Origin: Xylographa opegraphella
Taxonomy: Eukaryota
Assembly (NCBI GenBank): GCA_022813865.1
Contig: JALDZX010000010.1
Span: 434,001 to 498,000 of the forward strand
Reading direction: 5' to 3'
Length of the DNA stretch: 64,000 nt
A program made the translations under genes and the position numbers. The stretch's first letter is position 1; each line of letters starts with the position of its first letter. Under the pieces are notes generated by a model, which worked only from the letters and a program-made list of their open reading frames with translations, was not told where the DNA came from and made no database searches. Positions 56,453 to 60,233 of this stretch are shown here, piece after piece.

Positions 56453-58684
56453 CTAGTAGAGTGGTGATGCATCTTCATAATGCTGTCGCTGTTGTAGTAA
56501 GTACGCCAGGCAATAGACGCTCGTCAGCGTGTTGGGATGCTCTTTCCCCAGCGCCTTCTCCCTCCCCTCCAGCGCTCGTCGGTTCTTGTCCTCAGCCTGC
56601 TCGTACTTCCCCTGGGATCGCAGCACCGACGCTAGGTTGCTCACGCTCGTCAGCGTGCTGGGATGCTCTTTCCCCAGCGCCTTCTCCCTCCCCTCCAGCG
56701 CTCGTCGGTTCATGTCTTCAGCCTGCTCGTACTTCCCCTGGGATTGCAGCACCGACGCTAGGTTGCTCACGCTCGTCAGCGTGCCGGGATGCTCTTTCCC
56801 CAGCGCCTTCTCGTACCCCTCCAGCGCTCGTCGGTTCATGTCTTCAGCCTGCTCGTACTTCCCCTGGGATCGCAGCACCGACGCTAGGTTGCTCACGCTC
56901 GTCAGCGTGCTGGGATGCTCTTTCCCCAGCGCCTTCTCCCTCCCCTCCAGCGCTCGTCGGTTCATGTCTTCAGCCTGCTCGTACTTCCCCTGGGATTGCA
57001 GCACCAACGCTAGGATGCTCACGCTCGTCAGCGTGTCGGGATGCTCTGCTCCTAAAGCAGCCTCCTGTGCTTCCAATGCATCTTGAGACATCTCCTTTGC
57101 CTCTTTATATTTTCCCATTTCTTTTGCATACCACGCCGCCTTATACAGAATCGACGCCCACGCCTCAACTCTCCGTCTACCCGCTGGCCGACACGCTACC
57201 ACTGCTTGCGCGTGCGGATACAGCGCTTGACATACCGCCCAGTTCTTGTGCCGTCCCACCGGGTAGCTGTTGTCCATAAGTGTTATATACGCCTCCTTCC
57301 ACTCCTCTAGTTCGTCATACAGTTCTAGCCATTTTTTTGTCGAAAACTGTACCAGCCGGTGCATCTCAAATTCGTGCCCATCTGCGCTCATCTCAACTAG
57401 CGAGAAGCTAGTTAAGGTGTGAATATCGTCTTCAAAGTTAGCCTCTTTACCATCATCTCGCCAATATCGATCATGGAGAAGCGACTCCGGAATCCCCTGC
57501 TTGTCGAAAAGGCTCATCAGCGACAGCAGCCGAGCCGCCATGGGCATCGCCTTCCGGATCTGTGCGAACGAGATTTGCCAGGTGGCAATGATAGAGTTGG
57601 ACGCTCTGCCGTCCCTGCGATCGTCTCCCATGTCTTTCGTAAGCAGAAGGGCTCGGTCATGATCGTTTCTGCGAACTTCGTCTATGTATCGCGAGATGGT
57701 CATACGCGGCGCTCTATGTTCAATATAAGCCGCCGCCTGCGTAATGGCAAGGGGCATGTGGTCAAGGGCTTCAAGCAGTTTAATCGCGTTGTGCTCGCTC
57801 GCATTAAAGCTAAGTTTTTTCTGGAGAAGAGTTAGTGCTTCGCCCTTATCCATCGGCTTGACCTCTACGAGGTGATCTCCGCGTCCCGTTAGTCTGCGCG
57901 CCACATCTCGGCTCCGAGAGGTAATGAGGATAGACCCATTTGGCGATTGCGGTAAGAAGTCTGACAGCGGCTCTGCTGCTTGACCCTGATTGCAAATTTC
58001 TACTGCTTTCGCCCTGCCGAGTAGAGGGAAGAAAACGGCTGAATCGTCCGCGTTATCGACAACCATCACCCACCGCCCATTTGACTTGTCGCATAGCCAG
58101 CTTCGGACGAGCGGGAGAACATCTGCTTTAGGGTTGTCCCATCCATCCATCTTCGTCGCTTGAACAATTCTGCGATAGCCCTCCTCGAACCTCGCTCGTG
58201 TGCTTGCATGCACCCAGAACACCCACGTTGTCGGCGACTCTTCCTGCACCTGGTAGGCATATTCGATGGCGATCTGGGACTTCCTGCGCAGGTTGTCAGC
58301 GTTGGCGTTACGCTTGTGAGATGCAGCAATCACCCTACGCCTCCAAGTCCGACGAGCGCCGCTCGAGACGCTGGCCTGGCGCAGATCTGGCGTACCTTGT
58401 CGAGGCTGTCGCGGCTGATGAAGTCGTCGTCCCGCCGGAAGGGGACTGTCGAGGATGGAGGAGGCTTTGGCTGGCGGGCGTGGAGAACATTGACGGGAGC
58501 TGAGACGGGTCAGAAAATGGTAGTTGTAGAAGATGTTCCCATCCTGATTATACATAGTGTCGTAGGGGGTAAGCCTACCGTTGTATATGTCGCGTCCTGC
58601 GTTGCCGCTGCCTTGCTGGACTATGTCCGCTGTAATAAAGTCGTTGCGATAGGTGTTATGGCGGGCGTCCTGGATGTGAGCCAT
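56453..58684 (-). CDS. Fungal NLR: short N-terminal amyloid-like motif + NB-ARC + TPR repeats; C-terminally truncated by premature stops
   Basis: ATG at 58684 (MAHIQD). Removing introns 58500-58578 and 58284-58333 restores STVPFRRDDDFISR...AALVGLGGVGKSQIAIEY (P-loop). Also WVMVVDNADD (Walker B), ILITSR, MPLAITQAAAY, MHRLVQ and 42-aa TPRs. The homologous frame continues past the stops to 56198. Confidence 0.9.
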   Translation of the reverse strand: MAHIQDARHNTYRNDFITADIVQQGSGNAGRDIYNGRLTPYDTMYNQDGNIFYNYHFLTRLSSRQCSPRPPAKASSILDSPLPAGRRLHQPRQPRQGTPDLRQASVSSGARRTWRRRVIAASHKRNANADNLRRKSQIAIEYAYQVQEESPTTWVFWVHASTRARFEEGYRRIVQATKMDGWDNPKADVLPLVRSWLCDKSNGRWVMVVDNADDSAVFFPLLGRAKAVEICNQGQAAEPLSDFLPQSPNGSILITSRSRDVARRLTGRGDHLVEVKPMDKGEALTLLQKKLSFNASEHNAIKLLEALDHMPLAITQAAAYIEHRAPRMTISRYIDEVRRNDHDRALLLTKDMGDDRRDGRASNSIIATWQISFAQIRKAMPMAARLLSLMSLFDKQGIPESLLHDRYWRDDGKEANFEDDIHTLTSFSLVEMSADGHEFEMHRLVQFSTKKWLELYDELEEWKEAYITLMDNSYPVGRHKNWAVCQALYPHAQAVVACRPAGRRRVEAWASILYKAAWYAKEMGKYKEAKEMSQDALEAQEAALGAEHPDTLTSVSILALVLQSQGKYEQAEDMNRRALEGREKALGKEHPSTLTSVSNLASVLRSQGKYEQAEDMNRRALEGYEKALGKEHPGTLTSVSNLASVLQSQGKYEQAEDMNRRALEGREKALGKEHPSTLTSVSNLASVLRSQGKYEQAEDKNRRALEGREKALGKEHPNTLTSVYCLAYLLQQRQHYEDASPLY
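56519..57045 (-). repeat. Four near-identical 126-bp tandem TPR-coding repeats
   Basis: HPxTLTSVSNLASVL[QR]SQGKYEQAEDMNRRALEG[RY]EKALGKE repeated four times, near-identical at the DNA level. Confidence 0.95.
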
Positions 58685-58890
58685 CGATGCCGCATAACTT
58701 GTTGTGTGCTGGCGAGCGGTTATGTAGTGATAGAGGTAGCAGTGGTACGCATGAGCAAGGGTAAGGGCCATGCTTAGCACGGACACGGGTACAGCCGCAG
58801 CGGAGTGGGGGCGGACAGTGTAAGTTACTGTTTCAGCATTTATTCTTAATCCTGCCCCGCCCACTAAAACTAGGCTTCAGCTCTGGAACA

Positions 58891-60233
58891 ATGCCTCGCT
58901 CTCTAGTACCATCGTTTCTTAAGAAAAAGGAAGGATCCCGGCCAGCACCACCGGACATAAGAACTACGGCCGATGACCTTATCGAAAGCACTCGCTCGAT
59001 GGCTCTCGCAGCTCAGCCATCCTCTGTTGTGGCCGTCGCTTTATCGGCCGGTTCACCAATAGATCGTTGTGATGAGAACCTGTATGCATACTTTTAAACT
59101 CAGCGCCAAACACATATCTTACACTCTGGCAGTGAAACAACAGATGGCCGATTCGGCATTCAGACAATCTCGAATCCAGCAGACGCTAACATCGAGTATG
59201 AATTTATGCCAAGGCTGTGAAGAAATAGCTAATCTTGCAGCATCTGGTTCGTTCATGGCTTGACTGGGGATCGCGAGTCGACATGGATGCATCGAAATGG
59301 CACCTCTACGCTAGACCTCATGCGCGCCCACTATCCGACGGCGCGGATTATCGCCTACGGCTACGACGCCAATGTCGTAGGCCTTTGGAAAAACGCCAGT
59401 GGAGAAGGCCTCCGTGGACATGGAAAAGCCCTAGCCTATGCCATCTCCAACAGCCGATCGAGCGAGGCCAAGCGTCCCATCTGGTTATCGCACACAGTCT
59501 CGGCGGTCTGGTTACCGAACAGGCCATCCTGGTCTCTCTGGAGCCGAACGAGCCTCGTCTCCGCAGTATTGCTGCTTGCACAGCGGGGATTATCTTTCTG
59601 GGCACGCCGCATTCTGGATCCTATCTCGCGACGTGGGGATACACTCTCGCAAGGTTGTTAGATCGATTCTGGAGAACGAACAAGGATATTCTCTCGGTGC
59701 TGAAGCAGAAGTCAGAGGTGCTCAAGGGGGTGGAAGAGGTCTTCCAGCGTCAGTTGACAGCCGATGGAGCGCTAAGCCACGTCAAGATCTTCTGCTTCTA
59801 CGAGACCATCGCCGTGGATGCTGTTGGATTCGTGGTACCTGAAGAGTCTGCTACGATACTACCGTATTCGAACTGCGGAATTGACGCCAACCACATGAAT
59901 ATGACGAAGTTCACAAGCTCAAATGATGCCGGGTTTATTAGTATCAGAGGAGTTCTCGATGATTGGATCAAGCAAATAACCGAGCAGGCGACTCAAGAGA
60001 CCGATGCCCAACCCAAAAATTCTGCGTCTGCGGCGAAATTGACGTTCAACAATGGGCCGATTAAGGCACGGTTGTTTCAGCAGGGTACTGGCAATGCAGG
60101 GAGGGATATTAATCACGGGAATGTGACAAACCAAAGTGCGGGACGGGACTGGATCAATAAAGATCAGAAGGTCTATGGAAAAGCGAGGAGTGAAGTCGCC
60201 ATGGACGAGGATGGATCTGGTACTGATGAATAG
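58891..60233 (+). pseudogene. SesB-like alpha/beta-hydrolase (lipase) effector with C-terminal amyloid-like motif; 1-nt frameshift
   Basis: Putative intron 59082-59240. IWFVHGLTGDRESTW...ARIIAYGYDA...KRPIW, frame break at ~59486, then IAHSLGGLV...GIIFLGTPHSGS...CFYET...IDANHMNMTKF. The tail contains FQQGTGNAGRDINHGNVTNQSAGRD. Confidence 0.85.

What the first reader, a model, noticed from the sequence alone, without database searches (positions are those of the whole stretch)
58580..60180. Shared 23-aa motif at the NLR N-terminus and effector C-terminus: candidate amyloid signalling motif (QQG[ST]GNAGRDI)
Seen: NLR N-terminus TYRNDFITADIVQQGSGNAGRDI aligns without gaps to the effector tail TFNNGPIKARLFQQGTGNAGRDI (14/23 identical). 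The effector has a second partial copy (VTNQSAGRDWIN), and the two ATGs are 206 bp apart, head-to-head. Established: this is the layout of fungal amyloid signalling pairs (NWD2/HET-S, sigma with SesB, PP), where the NLR templates an amyloid fold onto the effector. Inference: the motif does not look to me like HRAM, sigma or PP. The repeated AGRD recalls bacterial NLR-associated BASS-type motifs, so it may be a new or horizontally shared family.
Basis: partly seen in the sequence, partly recalled or inferred. Interest (0 to 1): 0.88.

Follow-up and report, generated by a model that had tools for sequence, protein, structure and literature searches.

The report
Shared signalling motif, NLR and lipase
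A fungal immune-type sensor and the neighbouring lipase gene carry the same short, conserved end-motif, most likely a so far uncatalogued prion-like signalling tag, but in this genome both genes are damaged.

Summary
An NB-ARC/TPR NLR (minus strand, ATG 58684) and a SesB-like lipase (plus strand, ATG 58891, 206 bp away) share a gap-free 23-residue motif, 14/23 identical; 0 of 20000 shuffles reach its score. RNA contigs of about 97% identical relatives splice the motif exon into the NLR mRNA. The motif ([ST][FY]xN..h.A.hhQQGxxNAGRDI) is kept in 50 of 120 listed lipase homologues and in more than 20 NLR N-termini. Sensor and lipase are neighbours in 5 of 8 DNA loci, in two orientations, and in Lentithecium fluviatile. 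The layout is that of fungal NLR/effector amyloid signalling. The motif fails the published sigma, PP and PUASM patterns and gets no hit from Pfam's sigma, PP or HET-s models; an HRAM pattern test is inconclusive. No bacterial relative was found, so the BASS or horizontal-transfer idea is unsupported. A 1-nt deletion near 59486 puts the lipase's catalytic half and its tail motif out of frame. Two nonsense codons remove the NLR's last 85 residues. My reading: a probable new motif family of a known signalling kind, seen here as a decaying copy. Amyloid formation is untested.

The parts
58586..58654 (-). NLR-side motif (r0), TYRNDFITADIVQQGSGNAGRDI, residues 11-33 of the NLR
   Evidence: conserved in 17 aligned NLR N-termini and in P0121-P0124
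58579..58684 (-). NLR exon 1 (ATG at 58684; 35 codons plus 1 base)
   Evidence: spliced to exon 2 in RNA contigs of runs X15 and X16; same model as NCBI protein P0121
58500..58578 (-). NLR intron 1 (79 nt, GT..AG on the minus strand)
   Evidence: joint 58499/58579 in RNA contigs X15 and X16
58334..58499 (-). NLR exon 2: linker, VPFRRDDDF start of the NOD, and first part of the P-loop GLGGVG
58284..58333 (-). NLR intron 2 (50 nt), which splits the P-loop GLGGVG|KS
   Evidence: joint 58282/58333 (cut +1) in X15 and X16
56453..58283 (-). NLR exon 3: rest of the NB-ARC-type NOD, DUF7779 and five TPR_10/TPR_12 units; ends at a premature TAG (56453-56455)
   Evidence: Pfam; stop compared with relatives
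56198..56452 (-). Relic of the NLR C-terminus behind the first nonsense codon; a second nonsense codon follows 5 codons later. Relatives read on here for 85 residues to ...KLGWK
   Evidence: P0123, P0127-P0129 versus the window
58685..58890 (.). 206-bp divergent intergenic region
   Evidence: covered by RNA contig X15 record 3, with 77 nt replaced by 31 nt in that relative
58891..59081 (+). Lipase exon 1
   Evidence: joint 59081/59133; matches P0057
59082..59132 (+). Lipase intron 1 (51 nt, GT..AG)
59133..59195 (+). Lipase exon 2
   Evidence: P0057 reads DENLETTDGRFGIQTISNPADANID
59196..59240 (+). Lipase intron 2 (45 nt)
   Evidence: joint ending at 59241 in X15 and X16; boundary set from the P0057 reading frame
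59241..60233 (+). Lipase exon 3 (SesB-like / DUF676 alpha/beta-hydrolase, AHSLGG serine motif, linker, tail motif); not one open frame here
59480..59487 (+). Frameshift site. The window reads ..CCCATCTGGTTATCG..; relatives carry three other letters plus one extra C behind 59486 and read KRP[IT]FFIAHSLGG. In the window, frame 0 runs to a stop at 59659-59661
   Evidence: X2 DNA, X15 and X16 RNA have the extra base; X1, the possible source, does not, at depth 163
60042..60110 (+). Effector-side motif R1, TFNNGPIKARLFQQGTGNAGRDI
60123..60158 (+). Effector-side partial second copy R2, VTNQSAGRDWIN

Best explanation
This is a two-gene NLR/effector module of the fungal amyloid-signalling type. The sensor is an NB-ARC/TPR NLR with no N-terminal effector domain, only a 35-residue first exon that carries one copy of the motif. 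The effector is a SesB-like serine lipase/esterase. Its tail, which the model leaves unstructured, carries one full copy (R1) and one partial copy (R2). Inferred mechanism, by analogy with NWD2/HET-S, PNT1/HELLP/SBP and the sigma locus: ligand binding to the TPR array drives NOD oligomerisation. The clustered N-terminal motifs then fold cooperatively into a cross-beta nucleus. That nucleus templates the matching tail of the lipase, and so switches on or relocates the hydrolase as a defence or cell-death output. The motif, [ST][FY]xN-x2-h-x-A-x-h-h-Q-Q-G-x-x-N-A-G-R-D-I with an invariant Arg-Asp pair, defines a family that is not among the five catalogued fungal families (HRAM, sigma, PP, PUASM1-2). 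It was seen only on SesB-like lipases and NB-ARC/TPR NLRs. In this genome the module is probably dead or dying: the lipase has a 1-nt deletion ahead of its catalytic serine, and the NLR has two nonsense codons near its end. Shown here: the shared motif, its conservation, the linkage, the splicing, the lesions, and the failure of the sigma, PP and PUASM patterns. Inferred: amyloid templating and lipase activation.
For: The motif identity is far beyond chance. The gene models are backed by RNA contigs of relatives about 97% identical (2 runs, 1 study), which remove both NLR introns and both lipase introns, so the motif exon is in the mature NLR mRNA. NCBI protein P0121 equals my spliced model. 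The effector is SesB-like: N. haematococca SesB (P0069) hits at E 3e-31 and 39% identity, and DUF676/PGAP1 match weakly. The NLR has TPR_12 (E 5e-71), TPR_10, DUF7779 and a weak NB-ARC hit. Conservation: 50 of the 120 listed lipase homologues carry the core in their tail. Four full-length NLRs (4 of 12 candidates) and 17 short N-terminal ORFs from the profile search carry it at the N-terminus. Linkage: the NLR N-terminus lies next to the lipase in the window, L001, L002 and L007 (head-to-head) and in L004 (tandem), which is 5 of 8 DNA loci. The other 3 (L003, L005, L006) end within 250 nt of the lipase stop. In Lentithecium fluviatile the two proteins have consecutive accessions on one contig. 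Within-pair identity is 12-16 of 24, at or above the 43-56% that Dyrka et al. report for cross-seeding BASS pairs (bioRxiv 10.1101/2020.01.06.895854, passages). In an AlphaFold2 model of homologue P0010, residues 339-418 (linker plus motif) have pLDDT below 40 and no secondary structure. Words from the tail found only SesB-like lipases, 27 of 27 candidates of 138-440 aa.
Against: No fibril, prion or cross-seeding data exist for this motif. No amyloid-propensity predictor (ArchCandy, the PCFG or ASMscan models) could be run. The six pairs show no cognate-specific co-variation: within-pair identities (12-16 of 24) are no higher than between-pair ones (10-17 of 24). So conservation is shown but co-evolution is not. 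The invariant core contains a charged Arg-Asp pair. Daskalov et al. 2012 describe fungal motifs as relatively poor in charged residues, although the BASS paper reports conserved charged residues. Absence of Pfam hits is weak evidence of novelty: 8 of 8 other G/N/Q-rich SesB tails from the loci also got no Pfam amyloid-motif hit. The in-house HMMs and FASTA files of Wojciechowski et al. 2022 could not be read, so an unlabelled match there is not excluded. In this genome the effector cannot present the motif on an active lipase, so no function can be claimed for this copy.
Confidence: 0.7

Rival explanations
1. The motif is a divergent member of an already catalogued family, most plausibly a HET-s-related (HRAM) motif, rather than a new family. 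The mechanism would be the same and only the filing would change.
For: In one register the motif puts N at HRAM position 3, G at position 19 and hydrophobic residues at 5, 8, 10 and 18. That is 5-7 of 8 defining positions in the 12 rows of alignment A2 and 4-7 of 8 in all 29 rows tested, 27 of them with G at position 19 (positions from PMC4518210, passages). The L001 NLR reaches 7 of 8, a score reached by 32 of 5000 shuffles. HRAM subfamilies share less than 10-15% identity with HET-s, so sequence searches could miss a relation.
Against: The window's NLR score of 6 of 8 is reached by 602 of 5000 shuffles, and the effector's 5 of 8 by 3605 of 5000. HRAM position 15 (R/K) and hydrophobic position 16 are not met. 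Pfam HET-s models give no hit. Daskalov et al. 2015 collected HRAM on HeLo-related proteins, as two full repeats joined by a 6-18 residue loop. Here the carrier is a lipase with one full and one partial copy. The sigma, PP and PUASM patterns match 0 of 76 sequences.
Confidence: 0.15
2. The shared motif is an ordinary, non-amyloid docking motif (for example beta-strand addition or a short linear motif). It would recruit the lipase to the oligomerised NLR without prion-like templating.
For: The core is invariant and carries a charged Arg-Asp pair. No pair-specific co-variation is seen. No amyloid evidence exists for it.
Against: The length (23-24 residues), the G/N/Q-rich make-up with alternating hydrophobics, the strictly terminal positions, the one-copy sensor against the repeat-bearing effector, and the SesB partner all match the known amyloid-signalling pairs (PMC3321046, PMC9815663, passages and sections read). 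The tail is predicted unstructured.
Confidence: 0.12
3. The similarity is a by-product without function, arising from chance, low complexity, or local gene conversion between neighbouring genes.
For: Both genes are damaged in this genome, so nothing is being selected here now.
Against: None of 20000 shuffles reaches the score. The motif is kept on both partners across proteins only 69-85% identical overall, in two gene orientations, and in named Pleosporales genomes. Intact copies are transcribed and spliced.
Confidence: 0.03

Closest known systems
Sigma locus of Nectria haematococca (het-eN NLR, SesA, SesB) and sigma-motif pairs (Daskalov et al. 2012, PMC3321046)
   Same: The effector is a SesB-family lipase with a C-terminal G/N/Q-rich extension. 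An adjacent STAND/NLR lacks an effector domain and carries the same extension at its N-terminus. An intron lies in the 5' region of the NLR gene. Gene order and orientation vary between species.
   Different: The motif sequence differs. Sigma is three repeats of GxGxQFN and GGTQNIN units. Here neither unit occurs (0 of 76), and Pfam NACHT_sigma does not hit although it hits true sigma tails. No SesA partner was seen. The NLR is NB-ARC/TPR.
PP-motif cluster PNT1 / HELLP / SBP (Daskalov et al. 2012; review PMC5485727)
   Same: A SesB-like lipase (SBP) is controlled through a terminal motif shared with an NLR, with motif-mediated templating from the NLR to the effector.
   Different: The PP core G-h-Q-h-G and the full pattern FxGx(x)NxGLQLxGxNxGxL are absent (0 of 76). 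Pfam PF17046 gives no hit. No HeLo-like second effector was found within the window.
PUASM, the fourth fungal family (Wojciechowski et al. 2022, PMC9815663)
   Same: It is a family tied to a single enzymatic effector class, and it was found by NLR-N-terminus / neighbour-C-terminus matching. It is the precedent for what a new family of this kind amounts to.
   Different: The PUASM pattern FxGxGxQxxGxGxF is absent (0 of 76). PUASM goes with PNP_UDP and NACHT NLRs, whereas this motif goes with SesB-like lipases and NB-ARC/TPR NLRs.
NWD2 / HET-S and the HRAM1-5 motifs (PMC4518210)
   Same: One copy sits on the NLR and a repeated copy on the effector. The unit is about 21-24 residues, with N near the start and G near the end (N..16..G spacing).
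   Different: The effector is a lipase, not a HeLo pore-former. The second copy is only partial. HRAM positions 15 and 16 are not met, and the pattern score is not above shuffles for the window pair.
Bacterial BASS1-10 Bell/NLR pairs (Dyrka et al. 2020, bioRxiv 10.1101/2020.01.06.895854)
   Same: The logic is the same (NLR N-terminus matching an effector C-terminus), and some BASS motifs sit on alpha/beta-hydrolases.
   Different: No bacterial carrier of this motif was found. The BASS logos are figures and could not be compared residue by residue.

Membership tests
NLR/effector amyloid-signalling pair (functional class) | Motif at the extreme N-terminus of an NLR that has no other N-terminal effector domain | tested here: met
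   Motif at residues 11-33. The NOD (VPFRRDDDF...GLGGVGKS) starts about residue 55, and no Pfam domain precedes it.
NLR/effector amyloid-signalling pair (functional class) | Same motif at the C-terminus of an effector-domain protein | tested here: met
   Present in the tail of 50 of 120 listed SesB-like homologues. In the window the tail is present but out of frame with the first 180 codons.
NLR/effector amyloid-signalling pair (functional class) | The two genes are adjacent, in more than one genome | tested here: met
   5 of 8 DNA loci (window, L001, L002, L004, L007); the other 3 are too short. L. fluviatile has consecutive accessions on one contig.
NLR/effector amyloid-signalling pair (functional class) | Motifs co-evolve within a cluster (more alike within pairs than between) | tested here: not met
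   Diagonal 12-16 of 24 against off-diagonal 10-17 of 24 in six pairs. The sample is small and the family highly conserved.
NLR/effector amyloid-signalling pair (functional class) | Peptides form cross-beta fibrils or prions, and the NLR side seeds the effector side | not testable with these tools
   Needs ThT, EM, ssNMR and Podospora assays. ArchCandy, PCFG and ASMscan were not available here.
Sigma motif | Three-fold repetition of units A (GxGxQFN) and B (GGTQNIN); matches Pfam NACHT_sigma PF17106 | tested here: not met
   Unit A 0 of 76 and unit B 0 of 76. PF17106 gives no hit for the window segments at E up to 10, nor for P0010, P0015, P0124, P0132, P0139 at E up to 1. The controls P0069 (1.2e-10) and P0088 (4.5e-8) do hit.
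PP motif (RHIM-related) | Pseudopalindrome FxGx(x)NxGLQLxGxNxGxL with core G-h-Q-h-G; Pfam PF17046 | tested here: not met
   Core 0 of 76 and full pattern 0 of 76. No PF17046 hit.
HRAM (HET-s-related) | 21-residue unit with N/Q/H at 3, hydrophobic at 5, 8, 10, 16, 18, R/K at 15 and G at 19; two repeats on a HeLo-type effector | tested here: inconclusive
   5-7 of 8 positions in the 12 rows of A2 and 4-7 of 8 in all 29 rows tested. Shuffles reach the window NLR's score in 602 of 5000 and the effector's in 3605 of 5000. No Pfam HET-s hit. The carrier is a lipase. The generalised HRAM profile was not available.
PUASM | FxGxGxQxxGxGxF, on PNP_UDP effectors and NACHT NLRs | tested here: not met
   Pattern 0 of 76. 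The effector is SesB-like and the NLR is NB-ARC/TPR.
BASS1-10 (bacterial) | Motif shared with bacterial or archaeal NLR/Bell pairs | tested here: not met
   Profile search: 22 fungal-type and 3 unrelated repeat proteins among 25 hits. Prokaryote genome scan: 56 pattern matches, 1 passing tblastn, inside an enzyme ORF. The BASS profiles themselves were not available.
SesB-like alpha/beta-hydrolase | Homology to N. haematococca SesB; GxSxG nucleophile elbow and a conserved His | tested here: met
   P0069 (SesB) E 3.4e-31 at 39% identity. AHSLGG and NHM(D/N)MTKF are present, with H173, S174, G176, G177 and H306 invariant in 29 sequences. DUF676 and PGAP1 score below their cut-offs on the fragment.
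Fungal NB-ARC/TPR NLR | P-loop NTPase of NB-ARC type followed by TPR repeats | tested here: met
   GLGGVG|KS P-loop. NB-ARC E 0.002 (below cut-off), DUF7779 6e-10, TPR_12 5e-71, TPR_10 2e-59.

The most novel reading that the evidence does not exclude
The motif is one branch of a wider, undescribed 'AGRD' superfamily of fungal amyloid-signalling motifs built round an invariant Ala/Gly-Arg-Asp-hydrophobic turn. At least two sub-families would run as separate sensor-to-lipase channels. Evidence for the second branch: locus L001 carries, 3.5 kb from a pair of the present type, a second SesB-like lipase with the tail VYSGSVNSGGGPVFQGNQSAGRDFNV. Head-to-head with it lies a gene whose N-terminus reads IYFGHTNSQGGAVFNGDLNAARDINI (13 of 26 identical). 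Similar tails occur in P0054, P0066 and P0078. A conserved Arg-Asp pair in the core would imply a charge-ladder cross-beta fold unlike HET-s, PP or sigma. That would give a natural system for studying seeding barriers between related motifs.
Probability: 0.3. Interest if true: 0.65.

Novelty: new variant of a known kind. Interest (0 to 1): 0.5.

Why it matters
A 2025 source lists only five fungal NLR-associated amyloid motif families (PMC12261475, passages). Each new family has been a tool for asking how sequence sets amyloid fold and cross-seeding specificity. This candidate is easy to test because intact, named pairs exist (for example in Lentithecium fluviatile) and related copies are expressed. 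It would be a third motif type used by SesB-like lipases. Together with the many unmatched G/N/Q-rich lipase tails seen in the loci, it suggests that the motif repertoire of this effector class is under-catalogued, notably in Dothideomycetes and lichen-associated fungi. These entered the databases after the November 2019 snapshot used for the last survey. For this genome the practical message is more modest: the locus is a decaying copy and should be annotated as such.

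Tried and rejected
1. Complex prediction, with three copies of the NLR N-terminus and the lipase tail as partner, returned 'no answer' (score 0.02). It counts neither for nor against binding.
2. Whole-genome search of the window's own assembly was not possible because no genome is held. Whether another carrier of the motif exists elsewhere in this genome stays open.
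3. A full-text search for the motif strings NAGRDI, GNAGRD, AGRDIN, QQGTGN and QQGSGN gave 62 papers, of which 15 were listed. By title and abstract none of these concerns amyloid signalling motifs. The rows list occurrences of 'agrdin' (14 papers), which I take, without opening the papers, to be letters inside other words, and one collagen peptide.
4. The readable supplements of PMC9815663 hold none of the motif strings and none of the four accessions KAF2679034, KAF2679033, KAF2709069 and KAF2438446. Files 9 and 10, all .hmm and .fa files and the cut part of file 2 were not read, so this is not proof of absence.
5. I considered NLR34, the unassigned ascomycete motif of that paper. Its 25 listed rows are Tuber, Fusarium, Lomentospora and Pyrrhoderma proteins, annotated NACHT or left unannotated, and none is Dothideomycete or NB-ARC/TPR. 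Identity is therefore unlikely, but the sequences were not seen.
6. Pair-specific co-variation was looked for and not found.
7. The earlier notes of this scan gave nothing on this window or sequence.
8. Pfam scans of eight other lipase tails from the loci gave no amyloid-motif hit. This shows that a Pfam blank alone cannot establish novelty.
9. The first Pfam call failed on wrong coordinates and was repeated with corrected ones.

Full report
WHAT IS THERE

The window is fungal DNA, and no whole genome is held for it. Two genes lie head-to-head.

The minus-strand gene starts at ATG 58684. It has a 106-nt first exon (58684-58579), a 79-nt intron (58578-58500), a second exon (58499-58334), a 50-nt intron that splits the P-loop codons (58333-58284), and a long third exon. 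The spliced product begins MAHIQDARHNTYRNDFITADIVQQGSGNAGRDIYN-A-PVNVLHARQPKPPPSSTVPFRRDDDF...GLGGVGKSQIAIEY. It is identical to a 700-residue NCBI protein, P0121 (MCJ1282866.1, filed under Xylographa opegraphella). Pfam finds TPR_12 (5e-71), TPR_10 (2e-59), DUF7779 (6e-10) and a sub-threshold NB-ARC hit (0.002). It is therefore an NB-ARC/TPR NLR whose only N-terminal appendage is the short motif exon.

The plus-strand gene starts at ATG 58891 and has two small introns (59082-59132 and 59196-59240). It encodes a SesB-like alpha/beta-hydrolase with the motifs IWFVHGLTGDRESTW, GYDANV, AHSLGG and NHMNMTKF. The Nectria haematococca SesB protein (P0069) is a hit at E 3e-31 and 39% identity.

THE OBSERVATION

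The Smith-Waterman score is 69, against 24 +/- 4.3 (max 55) in 20000 shuffles. The partial second copy (60123-60158) and the 206-bp spacing of the ATGs are also correct.

TRANSCRIPTS

Logan RNA contigs of two lichen metatranscriptome runs (X15 and X16, one study) come from relatives about 97% identical. For the DNA relative X2 I counted 54 other letters and 3 gaps in 2101. These RNA contigs carry joints that remove exactly 58500-58578 and 58284-58333 in the NLR, and 59082-59132 and the second intron in the lipase. The motif exon is therefore part of the mature NLR mRNA, and both genes are expressed in those relatives. Contigs cannot show the transcript start.

CONSERVATION AND LINKAGE

- A search with the lipase's last 251 residues gave 185 hits at E <= 0.001 among 852 candidates, of which 120 were listed.
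- Fifty of those 120 carry the core in their tail, typically TFNNGPIKAxVFQQGTGNAGRDINHGNVTNQSAGRDWINRD. All 50 are among the 55 best hits.
- The named ones are Pleosporales: Pleomassaria, Lentithecium, Karstenula and Coniothyrium.
- A search restricted to the NLR's first 40 residues found 4 NLRs among 12 candidates. One is Lentithecium fluviatile KAF2679034.1, whose accession neighbour KAF2679033.1 is the motif-bearing lipase on the same 461-kb contig.
- Of seven close metagenome loci, L001, L002 and L007 have the NLR N-terminus head-to-head with the lipase, and L004 has it in tandem downstream. L003, L005 and L006 end within 250 nt of the lipase stop.
- A profile of 12 motif instances (A2), run against 1.84 billion representative proteins, gave 25 hits at E <= 0.001. 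Five are lipase tails. Seventeen are short ORFs of the type 'M-A-x7-10-[ST][FY][RH]N..VTAxVVQQGxGNAGRDIYN' that run on into intron-like sequence. Three are unrelated repeat proteins.
- Words taken from the tail alone found only the same lipases, 27 of 27 candidates.
- No third copy lies in the 64-kb window.

COMPARISON WITH KNOWN MOTIFS

The published definitions are sigma = units GxGxQFN and GGTQNIN repeated three times, PP = FxGx(x)NxGLQLxGxNxGxL (both from PMC3321046, passages read), and PUASM = FxGxGxQxxGxGxF (PMC9815663, sections 19 and 24 read). None of these patterns occurs in any of 76 family sequences.

Pfam holds models for sigma (PF17106), PP (PF17046, 'misnamed SesB' according to PMC12261475) and HET-s. 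None hits the window's segments at E up to 10, or five homologues at E up to 1. PF17106 does hit the true sigma tails of P0069 and P0088.

This negative result is weak on its own. Eight other G/N/Q-rich lipase tails from the loci also draw no Pfam amyloid-motif hit.

For HRAM I applied the eight defining positions given in PMC4518210. In the register [FY]xN...G-R-D the 12 rows of alignment A2 meet 5-7 of 8, and all 29 rows tested meet 4-7 of 8. Shuffles reach the window NLR's score in 12% of trials and the effector's in 72%, so the test is inconclusive.

The unassigned ascomycete motif NLR34 of the 2022 survey sits on Tuber and Fusarium NLRs, which that survey's table marks NACHT or leaves unannotated (25 rows seen). 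That survey used an nr copy of November 2019. I think, from recall, that this predates the release of the Pleosporales proteins found here. Its HMM and FASTA supplements could not be read.

THE BACTERIAL IDEA

Apart from the three spurious repeat proteins, the profile search found nothing outside the fungal family. A scan of one genome for each of 185,579 prokaryote species matched the degenerate pattern 56 times. One match passed tblastn. It lies inside a 391-residue ORF of a Candidatus Entotheonella MAG, not at a terminus and not next to an NLR; I did not run a family search on that ORF and read it as a luciferase-like oxidoreductase by eye. A BASS relationship or horizontal sharing is therefore not supported.

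STATE OF THIS COPY

Relatives (X2 DNA; X15 and X16 RNA) have one more base behind 59486, plus three substitutions, and read KRP[IT]FFIAHSLGG, as do P0001 and P0057. The window lacks that base. So does the contig of X1, the possible source run, at depth 163, so this is not an error of one assembler. Frame 0 then stops at 59659-59661. The catalytic serine, the histidine and the tail motif are all out of frame.

The NLR reads ...YEDASPLY*RACAG*QEKLG..., where P0123 and P0127-P0129 read ...LYQRACAGYQEKLG...KLGWK. Two nonsense codons therefore remove 85 residues. I could not check reads there. The module is thus most likely a recent pseudogene pair in this genome, while close relatives keep intact copies.

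MECHANISM

The mechanism is inferred by analogy with NWD2/HET-S, the PP cluster and the sigma locus. TPR-mediated recognition drives NOD oligomerisation. This brings the N-terminal motifs together, and they nucleate a cross-beta structure that templates the lipase tail. The tail is predicted unstructured in a monomer model, with pLDDT below 40 for residues 339-418 of P0010. Templating would activate or relocate the lipase.

Within-pair identity (12-16 of 24) is in the range reported for cross-seeding pairs. However, I found no pair-specific co-variation, and nothing here tests amyloid formation. The complex prediction gave no verdict.

VERDICT

It is unsupported on the BASS link, and it is blind to the fact that the copy is broken. 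I file this as a probable new motif family within a known kind of system. It is of moderate interest and readily testable in intact orthologues.

Noticed in passing
L001:949-1104 (-) and L001:1636-2704 (+): A second head-to-head pair lies 3.5 kb from the main pair on the same metagenome contig. It comprises another SesB-like lipase with the tail VYSGSVNSGGGPVFQGNQSAGRDFNVNQGFR and a gene whose N-terminus reads MASSSRTQHIYFGHTNSQGGAVFNGDLNAARDINI (13 of 26 identical). The domain after that N-terminus has no Pfam hit. Similar tails occur in P0054, P0066 and P0078.
   Followed up: partly
window 55802-55900 / 60286-60384 and 56026-56080 / 60262-60316: The two-gene module is bracketed by inverted copies of a short repeat (99 nt at 96% and 55 nt at 95% complementary). 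The same element lies on other contigs of runs X1 and X2, so it is multi-copy and MITE-like.
   Followed up: no
window 56366-57121: The TPR region is a tandem array of 126-nt (42-residue) units. The copies listed (252 nt each, starts 126 nt apart) are 63%, 92%, 92% and 77% identical to the reference copy. From recall, this is the highly conserved internal repeat pattern described for fungal NLRs. Relatives carry different numbers of units.
   Followed up: no
window 60539-62754 (-): Remnants of a pogo/Tc5-type transposase (DDE_1 at 2e-21; HTH_Tnp_Tc5 at 5.5e-4, 20.3 bits, below Pfam's cut-off of 22.2), split over several ORFs, lie directly beyond the lipase's 3' end.
   Followed up: partly
window 58200-60300: DNA 97% or more alike is held by runs labelled with several different organisms and by air and lichen metagenomes (20 rows, 12 studies). 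The lipase's nearest named relatives are Pleosporales, whereas the identical NLR protein is filed under a Lecanoromycete name. The label of the source assembly may not reflect the organism that carries this contig.
   Followed up: no
window 58200-60300 versus run X2: Where the window and the 97% relative differ by a transition, the window has A or T at 24 places and G or C at 11. This could reflect RIP-like or relaxed decay of this copy (table 1).
   Followed up: no
L014-L038 (lipase tails): Distant SesB-like lipases in the metagenome loci end in at least three other recurrent G/N/Q-rich tails..NTFSGTFNTGGGKMIQGSEFNSGGGSMTF in 7 loci..INFYGAVTGDKVVAGTQTTHGGTTNFTFN; and ..QGGNIFGSTNSTNSGRIIQGNYSGRDITFN. 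None is matched by Pfam's amyloid-motif models. I did not assign them to families.
   Followed up: partly
window 58685-58890: One RNA contig (X15 record 3) runs from NLR exon 2 through exon 1 and the whole intergenic region into lipase exons 1-3, with the introns between those exons (NLR intron 1, lipase introns 1 and 2) removed. The divergent transcripts may therefore overlap at their 5' ends in that relative; a contig cannot prove a single molecule.
   Followed up: no
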